The translations under genes and the position numbers were made by a program. Below the pieces are notes generated by a model. That model was given only the letters and a program-made list of their open reading frames with translations, made no database searches and was not told the DNA's origin. 64,000 nt of DNA from the NCBI RefSeq assembly GCF_003991155.1, contig NZ_CP031293.1. One strand, written 5' to 3'. This document shows, piece after piece, positions 44,742-60,481 of the stretch; within the stretch, counting starts at the first letter, position 1; each line of letters opens with the position of its first letter. The stretch is from Escherichia coli (GTDB lineage Bacteria > Pseudomonadota > Gammaproteobacteria > Enterobacterales > Enterobacteriaceae).

Positions 44742-44753
44742 ACGATCAGTAGA

Positions 44754-44781
44754 GGTGAATAGCGACCCACGACGCTATTCA
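44754..44781. terminator. lysC terminator hairpin
   Basis: gtgaatagcg / cgctattcac perfect 10-bp inverted repeat with an 8-nt loop. Confidence 0.7.
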
Positions 44782-44795
44782 CCATGCCGGTTCAA

Positions 44796-45143
44796 TTACG
44801 AATTACTGCGGCGCTGTTGCTTTTCCGCATGTACGCGTTTCACAATCTTATAAATCCATTGCAGCGTCAGATTATATTTCTTCGCTAATTCGGCGTAGTT
44901 GCGCCCATCGCACTCGCTATAGATTTGGTAGTCACGCTCCGATGCTCGTCCGGAGATCCCCTTAGGGAAATAAATGCTTTGTCCGCCCCAGTTACGCATC
45001 ATTCGGTCGGCAATGGCAAAGCCCACATTTTCTGCCGATGAACTGTCGAGATTGATGCTTTCAATCAGAACTTGCGATGCATGAAAAGCCAGGTCGTTAA
45101 TGATCTCCGGTGTCCGGGCCATCTCTTTTGATTTTCGTATCAT
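44796..45143 (-). CDS. Mor/C-like transcriptional activator (Mu middle/late activator family)
   Basis: 115 aa with C-terminal HTH (ELAKKYNLTLQWIYKIVKR), resembling the Mor/C family; transcribed divergently from the lysis/tail genes. Confidence 0.7.
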   Translation of the reverse strand: MIRKSKEMARTPEIINDLAFHASQVLIESINLDSSSAENVGFAIADRMMRNWGGQSIYFPKGISGRASERDYQIYSECDGRNYAELAKKYNLTLQWIYKIVKRVHAEKQQRRSNS

Positions 45144-45364
45144 TTTTCATCTCCATATATCTTGCATCCTGAATAAGACCCGATGCGTGTAAAACCACGG
45201 ATATACGCTAAGCAGTTGTCATTACTGCTACTCAATACATTCAACAAACAAATAAACAATTAACAAAAATATAAATTTTTAATATTAATGAACGCCATAA
45301 ATTCATGAAATAGATATATTGTTTGCGTTATGTTTCTTGTCAACAGGTGTATCATTTTACACGA

Positions 45365-45384
45365 TACTGTATACACATACAGTA
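45365..45384. promoter_or_regulatory. LexA-box-like palindrome in the island control region
   Basis: tactgtatacacatacagta, a perfect CTGT-N8-ACAG with TA-rich spacer; flanked by the inverted repeat ttttacac / gtgtaaaa. Confidence 0.6.
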
Positions 45385-57033: not shown

Positions 57034-57742
57034 ATTGCTGCCACCGCCGCCGCTTGCCAGCGATGAGCGTTTTTCGATTCTGGCAAACATCGCCGCCGAG
57101 CGTTTTGCCCAACTCGATCTGACGGCGTTGATGGTTTATCTGGTCGACCTGGTTGATGCTTCGGCATTACCAGCCCTTGCAGAACAATTTCACGTTCAGG
57201 GGCTGGAAGGTTGGTTATTTACCACCGATGAGCGGGAGAAACGCGAGTTAATTAAACAAGCCATTGAACTGCATAAATATAAAGGAACAATTTGGGCGGT
57301 ACGGCGAGTGCTGGAAATACTTTCCTTACCCGGAACTATTTCAGAATGGTTTGAATATGGGGGAAGGGCTTATTTTTTTAAGGTAAATATTACACTAGAG
57401 GAAAAAGGATTAAATGAAGATGAATTCAATGCACTTATCACATTAATTCATGAATATAAAAATGTTCGTTCAAAGCTGGAAAGCATTGTTATTTGGCTTA
57501 TTAATCGAAGCCCAATACCAGTTATTGGCAGCGCCATGCAAGGAGGGGAAGTCATTACAGTATTGCCTCCTGTTGCAGAAAGCCTCAGCCAGTCATCAGG
57601 AATATTTTTAGCGACGGGTTATTGTGTGGAGGAATATATCCAACTACTACCTTATCAACCCGATCGCCTTACACAATCCCAACCGATGAAGGTCGGCACA
57701 GGATACTGGAGCACCGAAATTATGTCTGTATATCCGGAGTAA
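57026..57742 (+). CDS. Tail protein I-like (baseplate wedge)
   Basis: ATG at 57026 overlapping the J stop (track start 57011 is TTG); about 238 aa. Confidence 0.65.
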
Positions 57743-57744
57743 TA

Positions 57745-59325
57745 ATGGCAAGTGAATTTTTTACAATATTAACTGCTGCAGGCAAAGCCAAAATTGCCTC
57801 AGCACTGGCCGAGCAAAAACAGATCCGTCTGCAAACTATGGTAGTTGGCGACGGTAATGGTAAATATATCGAACCGACAGAAAGTCAGACCAAAGTAGTC
57901 CATGAGGTCTGGCGTGGTCAGCTCAATACATTAAAAATTGCGCCAGATAATCCGGCCTGGGTTATCGCAGAAGCGATTATTCCCGAACAAGTCGGAGGCT
58001 GGTATGTACGCGAAGTTGGGTTACTGGATACCGACGGCACGCTGGTCGCTATTGGTAAATTCCCGGAAACCTATAAGCCACGATTACCTGCGGGGGCCAG
58101 TAAGCAAATCGTTATACGCGCGGTCATGGAAGTCACCAATGCAGACGCGGTGACGCTTTTGATCGACCCTTCAGTCGTTGTGGCAACCAGGGAATATGTC
58201 GATGACGCGTTGAAAACACATCAGCAATCACGAAATCATCCTGATGCGACGCTGACACAAAAAGGTTTTACGCAGCTCAGTAATGCAACTAATAGCGATG
58301 ATGAGACTAAAGCAGCCACGCCAAAAGCGGTAAAAACGGCATATGACCTGGCAAATAGCAAAGCCGCAACCAGTCATACTCATGCCTGGAATCAGATTAC
58401 TGGTATCCCTGACGGTACACTGACGCAGAAAGGAGTCGTTAAACTTAACAACACAACAAATAGCACCAGTACAACGGAAGCTGCAACGCCAAGTGCGGTT
58501 AAAGCAGCGATGGACAAGGCTATTGCTGCGGCGCCGTCCAGCCATACCCATGCCTGGGGGCAAATAACAGGTATCCCCGACGGTACGCTGACACAAAAAG
58601 GGGTCGTGAAACTTAATAATGCGACCAACAGCACCAGTACGACGGAAGCTGCGACGCCGAACGCGGTTAAGGCAGCGATGGATAAGGCTATTGCTGCGGA
58701 AAGCTGTCCTGTTGGGATGCCTATTCCCTGGCCATCTGATTCTGTACCTTCAGGCTACGCTCTGATGACAGGTCAGACATTTAATAAAACCTCCTATCCC
58801 AAACTGGCAATTGCATATCCATCTGGTGTTATTCCTGATATGCGCGGATGGATAATTAAAGGAAAACCATCCAGTGGGCGCGCTATATTATCTACTGAAC
58901 TGGATGGAGTTAAATCACATAACCATACGGGCAGTATTTCGAGTACTGATTTAGGGACGAAAACCACACCCCTCACAGACTTGGGGACTAAAACTGCATC
59001 ATCATTTAACCATGGAAATAAAACAACAAGTTCATCTGGCTCAGGCTCGGCAACTGCAACAGTAAGAACAGGGACATCTTCACCAGAGGGCCAAGGCGAC
59101 TGGACATCATATGGCCCTGGTACCGGATCATCTTTGGCAATTAATGTTCCATCACACGTTCATAGTGTTACAATTGGTTCCCATTCGCACACTGTTGCGC
59201 TCGGCACCCATTCGCATTCAATTGCACTTGGTTCCCATAACCACTCCCTAACCATTAATAATACCGGCAGCACCGAAAACACCGTCAAAAATATCGCATT
59301 CAACTATATTGTGAGGCTAGCATGA
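57745..59325 (+). CDS. Tail fiber protein with tandem fiber repeats and His-rich C-terminal tip
   Basis: ATG at 57745 in frame with the track ORF; three tandem 56-aa repeats; C-terminal HxH motifs (SHSHT, THSHS, SHNHS) and [11 protein letters not shown] end. Confidence 0.85.
58246..58700 (+). repeat. Tandem 168-bp direct repeats inside the tail fiber gene
   Basis: Repeat units begin at about 58246, 58414 and 58582; units 2 and 3 are near-identical at the DNA level. Confidence 0.8.
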
Positions 59326-60029
59326 ATACTTTTACCTTTTCTGATGAAGCTCAAATACTAACTGTATATAATTTTTCACAAGACTCCCAAGAATATATCG
59401 GTGAGTCTGATGCATACATTGCACCTAATACAGGCTTGCCAAATTATTGCACATTAATTTCACCTCCCGAAAAGGCTCCTGGTTTTACTCCAGTGTGGGA
59501 GAATGAAACATGGAGACTTATTGAAGATCATCGAGGCCAAACTGTTTATAACAAAGTTGATGGTAGCCAGCTTATTATTCAAGAATTGGGCCAATTACCT
59601 GAAAATGTAACAGTCATTTCCCCGACAGGTTCTTTTGAACGTTGGGATGGTGAAAAATGGCAACCATCTATAACCGATGCTAAAGAGGCGAAATACTCTG
59701 CAATCAAAAATCAACGCGATGCCATCACAACCGATTACATCATCATCAACAACCATCACTTCCACAGTGATACAAATAGCCGTATCCAACAGCTTTCACT
59801 CACAAAAATGGGAGCGGAGAAAAAAATTCCGCCAGGGTTAATGTGGAAAACTAAAAATAATGGTCTGATTGAGTTAACCAACGAAATCGCTGCCCAGTTT
59901 GAATCGGTCACCATGGATCACGATATGCGCTTGTTCGCAAACGCCCAGCGTCATATCGCGGCGGTGGAAGCACTGGACGATATTCAGGCGGTGCTCGACT
60001 ACGATTATTCAACAGGCTGGCAACCATGA
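59322..60029 (+). CDS. Tail fiber assembly protein (chaperone)
   Basis: 235 aa; ATGA overlap with the fiber stop. Confidence 0.7.
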
Positions 60030-60481
60030 GTAAAACCACTGTCTGGCTCGCTTGTTATAAGGGCCGAACAGAGCACCGTGGTATTGCCCGACTGGCTGAC
60101 TGGCTTACCCGTAAAATCACACGCGGTAGTTATTCCCACTGTGAATTAGCCGTTAAGCATGGTGAAAAGAGATACCTTTGTTACTCCGCATCACTGCGCG
60201 ATCGCGGTGTACGCGGAAAAATAATGCCATTGCCAGCGGATAAGTGGGATATGCTGCCGCTCCAGGCCAGCCTTCAGGATGTGGAAACTTTTTTCCGTAA
60301 ACATGATGGCAAAAAATATGACTGGCGCGGAGCATTAGGAATTATTATCGGTAATAAAGAACAGCGCGATCGCCTGTTTTGCAGTGAATTTTGTGCTGAA
60401 TTTCTGCAACTGAAGGAAAGCTGGCGCTATTCTCCAAACCACTTGTACGCTTTAGTCAGTAGCTGGCAATATCAGCCGTAA
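60026..60481 (+). CDS. Hypothetical Cys/His-containing protein at the distal end of the tail operon
   Basis: 151 aa, translationally coupled to the assembly gene; conserved-looking Cys/His positions; no confident family. Confidence 0.5.
   Translation: MSKTTVWLACYKGRTEHRGIARLADWLTRKITRGSYSHCELAVKHGEKRYLCYSASLRDRGVRGKIMPLPADKWDMLPLQASLQDVETFFRKHDGKKYDWRGALGIIIGNKEQRDRLFCSEFCAEFLQLKESWRYSPNHLYALVSSWQYQP

What the first reader, a model, noticed from the sequence alone, without database searches (positions are those of the whole stretch)
44742..60481. Headless contractile-tail gene cluster with its own lysis cassette and activator: tailocin-like element between lysC and yjbD
The window shows a Mor/C-like activator, a holin-like gene, an endolysin, a spanin-like gene, then a complete contractile tail set: terminator, sheath, tube, chaperone, tape measure, gpU/X/D-like, spike, gpW, J, I, fibre and fibre assembly. 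No capsid, portal, terminase, protease, integrase, repressor or replication gene is present, and core genes flank the block on both sides. This is the architecture of R-type bacteriocins and other phage-tail-like particles rather than an inducible prophage. The gene order (sheath and tube before the baseplate genes) follows Mu-like phages rather than P2 or the R2-pyocin. I recall lysC and yjbD as adjacent in K-12, which would make this an accessory insertion.
Basis: partly seen in the sequence, partly recalled or inferred. Interest (0 to 1): 0.85.

Follow-up and report, generated by a model that had tools for sequence, protein, structure and literature searches.

The report
Headless phage-tail weapon locus in E. 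coli
Next to lysC this E. coli carries an intact, long-conserved gene set for a phage tail without a head, plus its own lysis genes and a DNA-damage switch, which most likely makes a particle that kills rival bacteria; relatives are known, so it is a good new example, not a new kind of system.

Summary
Window 44742-60481 holds 21 intact genes: a Mor-type activator, holin, secreted SLT endolysin, and a full contractile-tail set. There are no head, packaging, transposition or immunity genes.

The block is colinear with the transposable phage BcepMu, with gp02-20, Rz/Rz1 and gp26-36 removed. The 'spanin-like' gene is a BcepMu gp25 homologue. No spanin is present.

About 195 of 5,426 complete E. 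coli genomes carry the block. 3,788 have lysC and yjbD adjacent.

The same element sits at pgi-lysC in Salmonella (the known 'Def4' remnant), E. albertii, Citrobacter, Enterobacter, Phytobacter and Superficieibacter. dN/dS is 0.02-0.23 at saturated dS, so it has been kept by selection.

A perfect LexA box lies between Mor and the holin gene and is conserved across genera. Conserved late-promoter motifs precede three transcription units.

Carotovoricin of Pectobacterium has the same headless architecture, but its tail proteins are closer to intact phages, so it was probably domesticated separately.

Verdict: a probable SOS-induced R-type tailocin, a new member of a known kind. Particle production and killing are untested.

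The parts
44796..45143 (-). Mor/C-family late transcription activator (115 aa), transcribed away from the lysis and tail genes
   Evidence: phrog_532 E 1e-35. Mu Mor 1RR7 E 5e-8 and Mu C 9L0X E 7e-5. 49% identical to BcepMu gp01. dN 0.055 versus Salmonella.
45353..45384 (.). Invariant block CATTTTACAC, 2 nt, then a perfect LexA (SOS) box TACTGTATACACATACAGTA at 45365-45384. It overlaps a rightward TTTACA-16-TACAGT promoter-like site and abuts a leftward TAAAAT -10-like hexamer facing Mor.
   Evidence: 0 mismatches to TACTGTATNNNNATACAGTA, against 0.15 sites expected at up to 3 mismatches. Promoter scan. Invariant across E. coli, Salmonella, Phytobacter and Superficieibacter in an otherwise 63%-identical spacer. 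Also present in Citrobacter and E. albertii. Absent from BcepMu, PhiKM and carotovoricin loci.
45438..45454 (+). Late-promoter-like motif TTAAACAAACTTTAAAA (distal, upstream of the holin gene)
   Evidence: One of only two strict regex matches in 64 kb (0.2 expected). Resembles the holin-upstream sequences of carotovoricin, PhiKM and Brenneria loci.
45596..45616 (+). Second conserved AT-rich block TTTTAAACTTATTTATTAAAG, 65 bp upstream of the holin ATG (candidate Mor-dependent lysis promoter)
   Evidence: Unique in the window. Identical or 1 mismatch in all four genera.
45681..45968 (+). Holin (95 aa)
   Evidence: phrog_1528 E 1e-35. Orthologues carry Pfam Holin_2-3. Homologous to BcepMu gp21.
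45971..46576 (+). Endolysin: SLT-type lytic transglycosylase with a hydrophobic N-terminal signal or anchor sequence
   Evidence: phrog_669 E 2e-61. 53-55% identical to BcepMu gp22. The N-terminus MWLKYIASMIIFVLFPLNA is read.
46589..46903 (+). Membrane-anchored coiled-coil protein, homologue of BcepMu gp25. This is not the Rz/Rz1 spanin. Function unknown.
   Evidence: 46% identical to gp25, with no hit to gp23/gp24. dN/dS 0.04-0.05. No family in NCBIfam or PADLOC.
46902..46939 (+). Intrinsic terminator that ends the lysis unit
   Evidence: 17-bp stem, -26.9 kcal/mol, z -5.9, followed by a U-run.
46959..47003 (+). Late-promoter-like motif CTAAATCACATTAAAA, followed by a conserved CAGAATAC -10-like region, upstream of gp37
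   Evidence: Regex match. Conserved columns across genera. Close to BcepMu's CTAAAGCCGATTAAAAG.
47048..47503 (+). Tail terminator (Gp37 family)
   Evidence: AF2 pLDDT 82.7. Foldseek hits: 2GJV (Salmonella orthologue, E 3e-19), lambda gpU, Mu terminator 9KHY, pyocin R2 and diffocin collar, T4 gp15.
47500..47697 (+). 65-aa conserved tail gene (BcepMu gp38 homologue)
   Evidence: phrog_895.. dN/dS 0.06-0.09.
47687..49111 (+). Tail sheath
   Evidence: phrog_23 E 2e-144. 71% identical to BcepMu gp39.
49111..49635 (+). Tail tube
   Evidence: phrog_55. Pfam Phage_tube in orthologues. dN/dS 0.02-0.05.
49686..50003 (+). Tail assembly chaperone (Phage_TAC_7, BcepMu gp41-like)
49963..50091 (+). Unannotated 42-codon gene (BcepMu gp42-like chaperone). 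A conserved hairpin at 50077-50103 covers its stop codon.
   Evidence: tblastn E 4e-4. Third-position substitution pattern and stem covariation. dN/dS 0.04-0.11. Hairpin -17.7 kcal/mol, z -7.2.
50193..52568 (+). Tape measure protein (791 aa). At about 1.5 Å per residue this gives a tail of roughly 120 nm (inference).
   Evidence: phrog_28 and phrog_5690.
52568..53521 (+). P2 gpU-family baseplate or tube-initiator protein with a coiled-coil C-terminus
   Evidence: phrog_788. Pfam Phage_P2_GpU in orthologues.
53521..53730 (+). Tail protein X
   Evidence: phrog_46.
53718..54758 (+). gpD-like baseplate hub
   Evidence: phrog_52 E 2e-133.
54768..55469 (+). gpV-like spike with a His-rich tip
   Evidence: phrog_9992. 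Pfam Phage_base_V in orthologues.
55475..55561 (+). Terminator (55475-55494), then the late-promoter-like motif CTAAATCGCTTTAATATC (55519-55536), then GAAAAT (55556-55561), just before gene W
   Evidence: Hairpin -15.3 kcal/mol. The motif and spacing are conserved in all lysC elements, carotovoricin, BcepMu and PhiKM.
55568..55927 (+). gpW/gp25-like baseplate wedge
   Evidence: phrog_43.
55918..57033 (+). gpJ-like baseplate wedge
   Evidence: phrog_6.
57026..57742 (+). gpI-like baseplate protein. Its C-terminus varies together with the fibre type.
   Evidence: phrog_48..
57745..59325 (+). Tail fibre: conserved N-terminus and a variable receptor-binding C-terminus with HxH repeats
   Evidence: Pfam Phage_tail_fib, three Phage_fiber_2 repeats and Collar. 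Cassette-like divergence between E. coli strains over 57530-59700.
59322..60029 (+). Fibre assembly chaperone (DUF4376). Its N-terminal half co-varies with the fibre tip.
   Evidence: phrog_1807 and phrog_105..
60026..60481 (+). Conserved last gene: predicted permuted NlpC/P60-like cysteine hydrolase. Its role is unknown.
   Evidence: No Pfam match. Invariant YSHCE and FCSE motifs. Profile hit to 3KW0, E 5.5e-5. AF2 pLDDT 86 and Foldseek 3KW0 E 2.6e-4.

Best explanation
The block is a domesticated, headless derivative of a BcepMu-type (Mu-like) transposable phage. It has been kept at the pgi-lysC locus of several Enterobacteriaceae genera, and it most likely works as an SOS-inducible R-type tailocin.

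Proposed sequence of events:
1. DNA damage activates RecA, and LexA cleaves itself and leaves the perfect SOS box at 45365-45384. The box is shown; binding is inferred.
2. This de-represses the promoter at the box, most likely the leftward one that drives the Mor-family activator. The direction is inferred.
3. Mor turns on three late units, each preceded by a conserved TAAA-N-TTAAAA-type motif: holin-endolysin-gp25-like; gp37 through spike V; and W through fibre, chaperone and the last gene. The motifs and terminators are shown; Mor dependence is inferred from the Mu paradigm.
4. Tails about 120 nm long assemble on a P2/Mu-type baseplate and are capped by the gp37 terminator.
5. The holin and the secreted SLT transglycosylase lyse the producer cell without a spanin and release the particles.
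6. The variable fibre tip selects target strains, probably through LPS. Sheath contraction drives the spike and tube through the envelope and kills by depolarisation. This last step is inferred from R-pyocins and carotovoricin.
For: - Complete tail set and lysis genes, with the terminator fold confirmed.
- The genes removed relative to BcepMu are exactly the early/transposition/immunity genes, the spanin and the head/packaging genes.
- The same element lies at pgi-lysC in Salmonella, Phytobacter, two Superficieibacter species, Citrobacter, Enterobacter and E. albertii.
- dN/dS is 0.02-0.23 for all genes, with dS of about 1-2.5. The flanking lysC has dS 1.26 between E. coli and Salmonella. No internal stops were found.
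- The LexA box is perfect, statistically unexpected, conserved across genera, and absent from the related phages.
- Promoter-like motifs and terminators define three transcription units, and the motifs are shared with BcepMu, PhiKM and carotovoricin.
- The receptor-binding cassette is swapped between E. coli strains, as in carotovoricin (PMC13195805).
- Carotovoricin, a characterised tailocin (PMC13195805), has the same holin-SLT-...-gp37-sheath headless layout.
Against: - There is no experimental evidence for particles or killing.
- No spanin is present, so outer-membrane disruption is unexplained.
- Only about 3.6% of complete E. coli genomes carry the block.
- Some copies are damaged: fibre pseudogenes in 2 of 7 annotated copies, an IS-replaced Mor, IS insertions, and a 138-bp in-frame deletion in J.
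- The sampled Enterobacter cloacae copy lacks the LexA box and has an IS in the gp25-like gene.
- The direction of the LexA-controlled promoter is ambiguous.
- No -1 frameshift chaperone product like BcepMu gp42-43 can be made.
Confidence: 0.7

Rival explanations
1. The block is an inert prophage remnant. It is the tail half of a dead BcepMu-like prophage that survives only because deletion has not yet removed it, and it makes no functional product.
For: The Salmonella orthologue has been filed as the 'prophage remnant Def4' (PMC5322425). Most E. coli genomes lack the block. Several copies carry IS elements, fibre pseudogenes or deletions.
Against: All 21 genes are intact in this copy and in most sampled copies. 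dN/dS is 0.02-0.23 at saturated synonymous divergence across at least 5 genera, which neutral decay cannot produce. The deletions removed exactly the modules a tailocin does not need. A host-type LexA box, absent from the parental phage type, is conserved.
Confidence: 0.08
2. The element is functional and under selection, but it is not a bacteriocin. Three versions are possible: (a) an SOS-triggered altruistic lysis module that releases other goods or DNA; (b) a supplier of tails to capsids made by another element, such as a co-resident BcepMu-like prophage or a satellite; or (c) an injection device aimed at non-bacterial targets.
For: The lysis cassette is the first unit after the SOS box. 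673 E. coli genomes carry PhiKM-like prophages with the same promoter motifs, and one carrier strain has both elements. The terminator that would dock onto a head connector is retained.
Against: Selection acts on every tail, baseplate and fibre gene, not only on the lysis genes. The tail proteins are only about 60% identical to PhiKM's, and most carriers were not shown to hold such a prophage. No effector, AAA+ ATPase or toxin cargo genes typical of eCIS are present. Fibre-tip cassette exchange is the signature of strain-specific bacterial targeting.
Confidence: 0.12
3. This is a regulatory variant. The LexA box represses the rightward promoter (TTTACA-16-TACAGT), so the SOS response directly drives a long leader and the lysis and tail genes. 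Mor is expressed separately, or acts only as an amplifier.
For: The only sigma-70-like site called by the scan at the box is on the + strand. The invariant CATTTTACAC can be read as its -35. A late-promoter-like motif lies just downstream, at 45438.
Against: Mor has no other conserved promoter. The 200 bp between it and the box are poorly conserved. On the other strand the invariant block reads as a good -10 (TAAAAT), with the LexA box over the -35 position. Three terminator-separated units, each with its own activator-type motif, need a diffusible activator that is itself induced.
Confidence: 0.3

Closest known systems
Salmonella enterica 'Def4' element (STM4198-STM4219 of LT2; 'BTP6' in D23580)
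   Same: It occupies the same chromosomal site (pgi-lysC ... yjbD) and has the same genes in the same order. Amino-acid identity is 60-97%. It has the same LexA box and promoter motifs. The crystal structure 2GJV is its gp37 orthologue.
   Different: Def4 carries gtrABC (O-antigen glucosylation) inserted between V and W, and it has different genes between the element and yjbD in place of the slipin/NTase pair. The papers found describe it only as a prophage remnant (PMC5322425, PMC3591323). No function was assigned in the literature searched.
Carotovoricin Er (Ctv) of Pectobacterium
   Same: It is a headless BcepMu-type cluster that opens with holin and SLT endolysin, then gp37, a small gene, sheath, tube, chaperone, TMP, gpU, X, D, V, W, J, I and a variable fibre locus (PMC13195805). 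It shares the V-W promoter motif. It is induced by DNA damage. From memory, this goes through RdgA/RdgB, with RdgB being Mor-like (Liu et al. 1994, cited in PMC3349551).
   Different: It sits at a different locus (tolC_2-ybiB). It keeps Rz and gp26 homologues. It has no adjacent Mor and no LexA box. Many copies have an invertase-switched fibre (PMC13195805). Its tail proteins are closer to intact phages (distance 0.35-0.37) than to the E. coli element (0.53), which points to separate domestication.
Bcepmuvirus phages (Burkholderia phage BcepMu; Escherichia phage PhiKM)
   Same: The tail and lysis modules are colinear, sheath identity is 71-74%, the Mor gene is divergent from the lysis genes, and the late-promoter motif is shared.
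   Different: The phages have transposase, repressor, GemA, Rz/Rz1, terminase, portal and capsid genes. All of these are absent here. The phages have no LexA box.
R2 pyocin of Pseudomonas aeruginosa
   Same: It is a chromosomal headless contractile tail with a lysis cassette, it is SOS-inducible, and the terminator/collar fold is shared.
   Different: It has a P2-type gene order (baseplate and fibre before sheath and tube). From memory, its regulation uses PrtR/PrtN, and it has spanin genes. No close sequence relationship was seen.
R-syringacin (Rp4) of Pseudomonas syringae
   Same: It is an independently co-opted Mu-like (SfV-like) myophage tail that serves as a tailocin (PMC4684702).
   Different: It comes from a different Mu-like lineage and locus, and it retains Rz/Rz1 (PMC4684702). 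It was not compared at sequence level here.

Membership tests
R-type tailocin (phage tail-like bacteriocin) | Complete contractile-tail gene set: terminator, sheath, tube, chaperone, TMP, hub, spike, wedge, fibre and fibre chaperone | tested here: met
R-type tailocin (phage tail-like bacteriocin) | No capsid, portal, terminase, replication, integration or immunity genes in or next to the cluster | tested here: met
   tblastn, whole window; annotation.
R-type tailocin (phage tail-like bacteriocin) | Maintained by selection as a host locus: conserved site and purifying selection | tested here: met
R-type tailocin (phage tail-like bacteriocin) | Own lysis cassette and stress-responsive regulator | tested here: met
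   Holin, SLT and Mor are present, and there is a LexA box. No spanin is present.
R-type tailocin (phage tail-like bacteriocin) | Headless particles are produced and kill related strains | not testable with these tools
   This needs induction, electron microscopy and spot assays.
Carotovoricin (Ctv) lineage | Orthology: the tolC_2-ybiB locus and sister-group relation of the tail proteins | tested here: not met
   The locus is different. Ctv is nearer to intact phages than to this element.
Carotovoricin (Ctv) lineage | Lysis unit retains Rz-like and gp26-like genes | tested here: not met
Salmonella Def4-type lysC element | Located between lysC and yjbD, Mor divergent from holin, colinear gp37-to-last-gene set | tested here: met
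Intact Bcepmuvirus prophage | Transposase (A/B), repressor, and terminase-portal-capsid module | tested here: not met
P2-type R pyocin | P2 gene order (V-W-J-I-H before FI-FII) | tested here: not met
   Here sheath and tube precede the baseplate genes.
Extracellular contractile injection system (Afp/PVC type) | AAA+ ATPase, effector or toxin cargo genes, and no phage lysis cassette | tested here: not met
   No such genes are present, and a lysis cassette is present.
LexA (SOS) regulon | CTGT-N8-ACAG box matching the consensus and placed over a promoter | tested here: met
   LexA binding itself is not testable here.
Mor/C family activator | Sequence homology to Mu Mor and C, including the C-terminal HTH region | tested here: met

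The most novel reading that the evidence does not exclude
The lysC-linked element is an active weapon that was domesticated from a BcepMu-like phage independently of carotovoricin, before Escherichia and Salmonella diverged. It has been rewired so that host LexA directly gates a single Mor activator, and it lyses its producer without a spanin. If so, the long-ignored 'Def4 remnant' of Salmonella Typhimurium and its E. coli counterpart would be native R-type tailocins that shape strain competition in the gut, with fibre cassettes exchanged like serotype-specific warheads.
Probability: 0.45. Interest if true: 0.65.

Novelty: new member of a known kind. Interest (0 to 1): 0.5.

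Why it matters
E. coli and Salmonella Typhimurium are the best-studied bacteria, yet no native R-type tailocin of either was described in the literature I could search. If this locus is active, three things follow.

- It adds a contact-independent, strain-specific weapon to the known colicin, microcin, CDI and T6SS arsenal of gut Enterobacteriaceae.
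- It re-labels a 'defective prophage' of the LT2 reference genome as a selected host function.
- It offers a natural enterobacterial chassis, with swappable fibre cassettes, for engineered narrow-spectrum antibacterials.

It would also be a clean second case, beside carotovoricin, of the same phage type being stripped to a tail in parallel, with a different regulatory solution.

Tried and rejected
- **ST131 'tailocin' paper (PMC9205054).** It describes an intact P2 prophage, a different element.
- **Pectobacterium carotovorum sheath homologue P0045.** I took it for carotovoricin, but it is a complete BcepMu-like prophage. The real Ctv cluster came from P0049.
- **Spanin search.** Small ORFs in and after the gp25-like gene have no lipobox or signal peptide. 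Rz/Rz1 of BcepMu and of the Pectobacterium prophage give no hit.
- **Chaperone frameshift search.** I looked for a G/GT-type -1 frameshift product. The -1 frame from the 42-codon ORF closes within 4 codons, and there is no BcepMu gp43 homologue.
- **NCBIfam and PADLOC.** Neither was informative for the gp25-like protein, gp37, the last gene, or the NTase and slipin genes. Pfam found nothing for the last gene.
- **Rfam.** Only the lysine riboswitch of lysC was found; a sub-threshold RsaJ hit is noise.
- **NJ bootstrap tree.** It timed out, so I used a Kimura distance matrix instead.
- **Literature.** None returned a paper describing this locus as a tailocin. Subscription-only papers (Casjens 2011; Yamada 2006; Liu 1994) could not be read.

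Full report
**1. What is there**

The window is E. coli chromosome. The 16.2 kb around the finding is 100% identical to many complete genomes, for example MRY15-117 and STEFF_1. RefSeq annotation of an identical copy, my ORF list and PHROG scans agree on the gene content.

After pgi (41218-42873, minus strand) and lysC (43392-44741) comes a Mor-family activator on the minus strand (44796-45143). A 537-bp spacer follows. Then, on the plus strand, come:
- a holin, an SLT-type endolysin and a small membrane protein;
- gp37, a 65-aa gene, sheath, tube, a TAC_7 chaperone and a 791-aa tape measure;
- a gpU-family protein, X, D, V, W, J and I;
- a fibre, a DUF4376 fibre chaperone and a final 151-aa gene that ends at 60481.

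Comparison with an E. coli genome that has a zeta-toxin gene at this site shows homology stopping exactly at the lysC stop codon (44741) and resuming at 60477. The two minus-strand genes that follow, a nucleotidyltransferase and a slipin (60496-62420), are a separate accessory module. They occur in 1,631 of 5,426 genomes, whereas the tail core occurs in 199 (190 nearly complete).

**2. Head genes and ancestry**

The sheath is 71-74% identical to those of Bcepmuvirus transposable phages: BcepMu, phiE255, Klebsiella KP12 and Escherichia PhiKM. Against the annotated BcepMu genome the element is colinear with gp01 (Mor), gp21 (holin), gp22 (SLT), gp25 and gp37 through gp51.

There are no matches to gp02-gp20 (GemA, transposase A/B, repressor and others), gp23/24 (Rz/Rz1) or gp26-gp36 (terminase, portal, protease, capsid, adaptor). 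This holds anywhere in the 64-kb window. Only 145 bp separate the gp25-like gene from gp37.

No o-spanin-like lipoprotein ORF overlaps or follows it.

The gp37 protein was modelled (pLDDT 82.7). It matches:
- the crystal structure of its Salmonella orthologue (2GJV);
- the tail terminators of lambda, Mu, T5 and T4;
- the collar or cap proteins of R2 pyocin, diffocin and monocin.

A conserved 42-codon gene (49963-50091) homologous to BcepMu gp42 is missing from the annotation. Unlike BcepMu, no -1 frameshift extension is possible.

**3. Distribution**

- In 3,788 of 5,426 complete E. coli genomes, including BL21 and laboratory strains, the lysC 3' end and yjbD lie together.
- About 195 genomes (3.6%) carry the tail block, in allelic groups 94-100% identical.
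- The same element lies directly after lysC, with Mor divergent from the holin gene, in Salmonella enterica, Phytobacter massiliensis, two Superficieibacter species, Citrobacter freundii, Enterobacter cloacae and Escherichia albertii.
- The Salmonella copy carries locus tags STM4198-STM4219. This is 'Def4', one of four 'prophage remnants' common to Typhimurium genomes (PMC5322425; PMC3591323). It also contains gtrABC between V and W.

**4. Remnant or functional**

Pairwise Nei-Gojobori estimates between the window and the Salmonella, Phytobacter and Superficieibacter copies give dN/dS of 0.02-0.23 for every gene. Synonymous divergence is about 0.6-2.7 where it can be estimated and is saturated for some pairs. 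The flanking lysC gives dS 1.26 and yjbD 1.24 between E. coli and Salmonella. No internal stops appear. Such a pattern requires purifying selection over roughly the time since these genera diverged.

Four of seven annotated E. coli copies are fully intact. Damaged copies also exist:
- two strains have a fragmented fibre gene;
- one of those has also lost Mor to an IS;
- one has a 138-bp in-frame deletion in J;
- one has an ISKox3 insertion;
- the sampled Enterobacter copy has an IS in the gp25-like gene.

The element is therefore conserved in the long run but is being lost or broken in individual lineages.

Between E. coli strains the block is 94-97.5% identical up to 57529. Identity then drops to about 71% or becomes unalignable across the gpI C-terminus, the fibre and the first half of the chaperone. 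It recovers from about 59700. This cassette behaviour of the receptor-binding module matches that reported for carotovoricin (PMC13195805).

**5. Regulation**

The Mor-holin spacer is poorly conserved between genera (63% mean identity), apart from two islands.

The first island is CATTTTACAC, 2 nt, then TACTGTATACACATACAGTA. The 20-mer is a perfect match to the LexA-box pattern; 0.15 matches are expected at up to 3 mismatches. In the same search the only other hits are two overlapping 3-mismatch sites at 4598-4630. From memory, these resemble the uvrA-ssb box. The box, with its neighbouring 10-mer, is also present in Citrobacter and E. albertii. It is absent from BcepMu, PhiKM, a Pectobacterium prophage and carotovoricin. 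It therefore looks like a feature gained with domestication.

The box overlaps a rightward TTTACA-16-TACAGT site. On the other strand it sits over the -35 position of a TAAAAT -10 that faces Mor. I cannot decide the direction from sequence.

The Mor protein matches Mu Mor (1RR7, E 5e-8) and Mu C.

Three terminator-delimited units can be read:
- the lysis unit, ending at a -26.9 kcal/mol terminator (46902-46939);
- gp37 through V, ending at 55475-55494;
- W through the last gene.

Each unit is preceded by a motif of the form [C/T]TAAAn-N3-5-[A/T]TTAA[A/T]A. A strict version matches only twice in 64 kb, at 45438 and 46959, against 0.2 expected. The copy before W is conserved, together with a -10-like GAAAAT at fixed spacing, in all lysC elements and at the homologous site of carotovoricin, BcepMu and PhiKM. 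By analogy with Mu, these are candidate Mor-dependent late promoters. This step is inference.

**6. Relation to carotovoricin**

A Pectobacterium brasiliense locus lies between the protease-secretion OEP gene (the 'tolC_2' of PMC13195805) and the tail genes. It has holin, SLT, an Rz-like gene, gp25-like and gp26-like genes, then gp37, a small gene, sheath and so on, with no head genes. This is the carotovoricin cluster as that paper describes it.

The architecture is the same as here. However, the concatenated sheath, tube, D, J, W, X and gpU proteins place carotovoricin at distance 0.35-0.37 from intact phages (PhiKM and a P. carotovorum prophage) and 0.53 from the E. coli element. Both are about equally far from BcepMu (0.52-0.57). 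A single headless ancestor would require the phages to regain heads, so separate domestication is more likely.

From memory, carotovoricin is induced through RecA, the repressor RdgA and the Mor-like RdgB (Liu et al. 1994, listed in PMC3349551). The E. coli element would reach the same logic with host LexA acting directly.

**7. Other points**

The last gene has no Pfam family. It has invariant YSHCE and FCSE motifs, and its profile and AF2 model match only a Bacillus cereus cysteine peptidase, 3KW0. It is probably a permuted NlpC/P60-type hydrolase. Its role is open.

BcepMu-like prophage head genes occur in 673 E. coli genomes at many loci. In strain 2016C-3878, which also has an identical lysC element, they lie 1.5 Mb away. 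They do not complete this element.

**8. Literature and verdict**

None of the ten allowed full-text searches returned a paper that describes this locus in E. coli or Salmonella as a tailocin. A 2026 Salmonella T6SS survey mentions unnamed 'tailocin loci' that it discarded (PMC12994826). The 'ST131 tailocin' is an intact P2 prophage.

The element is best filed as a new, uncharacterised member of the R-type tailocins. It is the E. coli orthologue of Salmonella Def4 and an architectural twin of carotovoricin, though probably independently derived. Function remains to be shown at the bench.

Noticed in passing
window 60496-62420 (minus strand): A nucleotidyltransferase-domain gene and a slipin (SPFH) gene form a separate accessory pair between the tail block and yjbD. 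The pair is present in 1,631 of 5,426 E. coli genomes, far more than carry the tail block, and also in Phytobacter and Superficieibacter. In NCTC11476 a zeta-toxin-family gene takes the place of the tail block next to the pair (L006 2535-3461). There are no PADLOC hits, so a possible defence or stress module is unexplained.
   Followed up: partly
window 60026-60481: The last gene of the tail operon belongs to a small family (89 clusters, in Enterobacteriaceae and Pasteurellaceae, often mislabelled 'enoyl-CoA hydratase'). It has invariant YSHCE and FCSE motifs and a predicted permuted NlpC/P60-like fold. Its function in a tail operon is unknown.
   Followed up: partly
window 49963-50103: An unannotated, conserved 42-codon gene (BcepMu gp42-like) overlaps the end of the chaperone gene. 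A strong hairpin covers its stop codon, and the stem shows a compensatory A-U to G-C change between E. coli and Salmonella. No frameshift product is possible, so the hairpin's role is unknown.
   Followed up: partly
window 55469-55568; L002 20115-23371; L017 18123-18977: The V-W gap, between a terminator and a conserved promoter motif, is a cargo insertion point. It holds gtrABC (O-antigen glucosylation) in Salmonella Def4 and an AbiJ_NTD4-domain gene in a Pectobacterium BcepMu-like prophage. An O-antigen modifier inside a probable tailocin cluster could act as self-protection.
   Followed up: no
L014 (Brenneria alni) 519-3698; L015 (Brenneria salicis) 7302-10273: Brenneria alni has a headless holin-SLT-Rz-gp25-gp26|gp37 cluster whose tail proteins are only 0.14 distant from a complete Pectobacterium prophage. 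This suggests a further recent domestication, or recombination between prophage and tailocin. Brenneria salicis has a degraded version that still keeps Mor and GemA upstream.
   Followed up: partly
window 4598-4630 and 21538-21553: The window has other LexA-box-like sites. TACTGTATATTCATTCAGGT resembles the uvrA-ssb box and CTGTGAGTATATACAG resembles lexA's own box; both identifications are from memory. The genes there were not checked.
   Followed up: no
E. coli genomes generally; NZ_CP029747.1 3381013-3384910: PhiKM-like Bcepmuvirus prophages are present in 673 of 5,426 complete E. coli genomes. At least one strain has both such a prophage and the lysC element. Since the two share late-promoter motifs, their Mor/C activators could cross-activate each other.
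   Followed up: no
L025 (Enterobacter cloacae) 2388-2854 and 3765-5225: This copy of the element has a completely different, AT-rich Mor-holin spacer without a LexA box, and an IS (DDE_3 transposase) in the gp25-like gene.
   Followed up: no
L008 (E. coli E69, CP089930.1): This is a more divergent E. coli allele of the element (about 91% nucleotide identity). It lacks the slipin/NTase pair between the last gene and yjbD.
   Followed up: no
window 43104-43300: A lysine riboswitch lies upstream of lysC (Rfam RF00168, 99.5 bits). This is ordinary and expected.
   Followed up: yes
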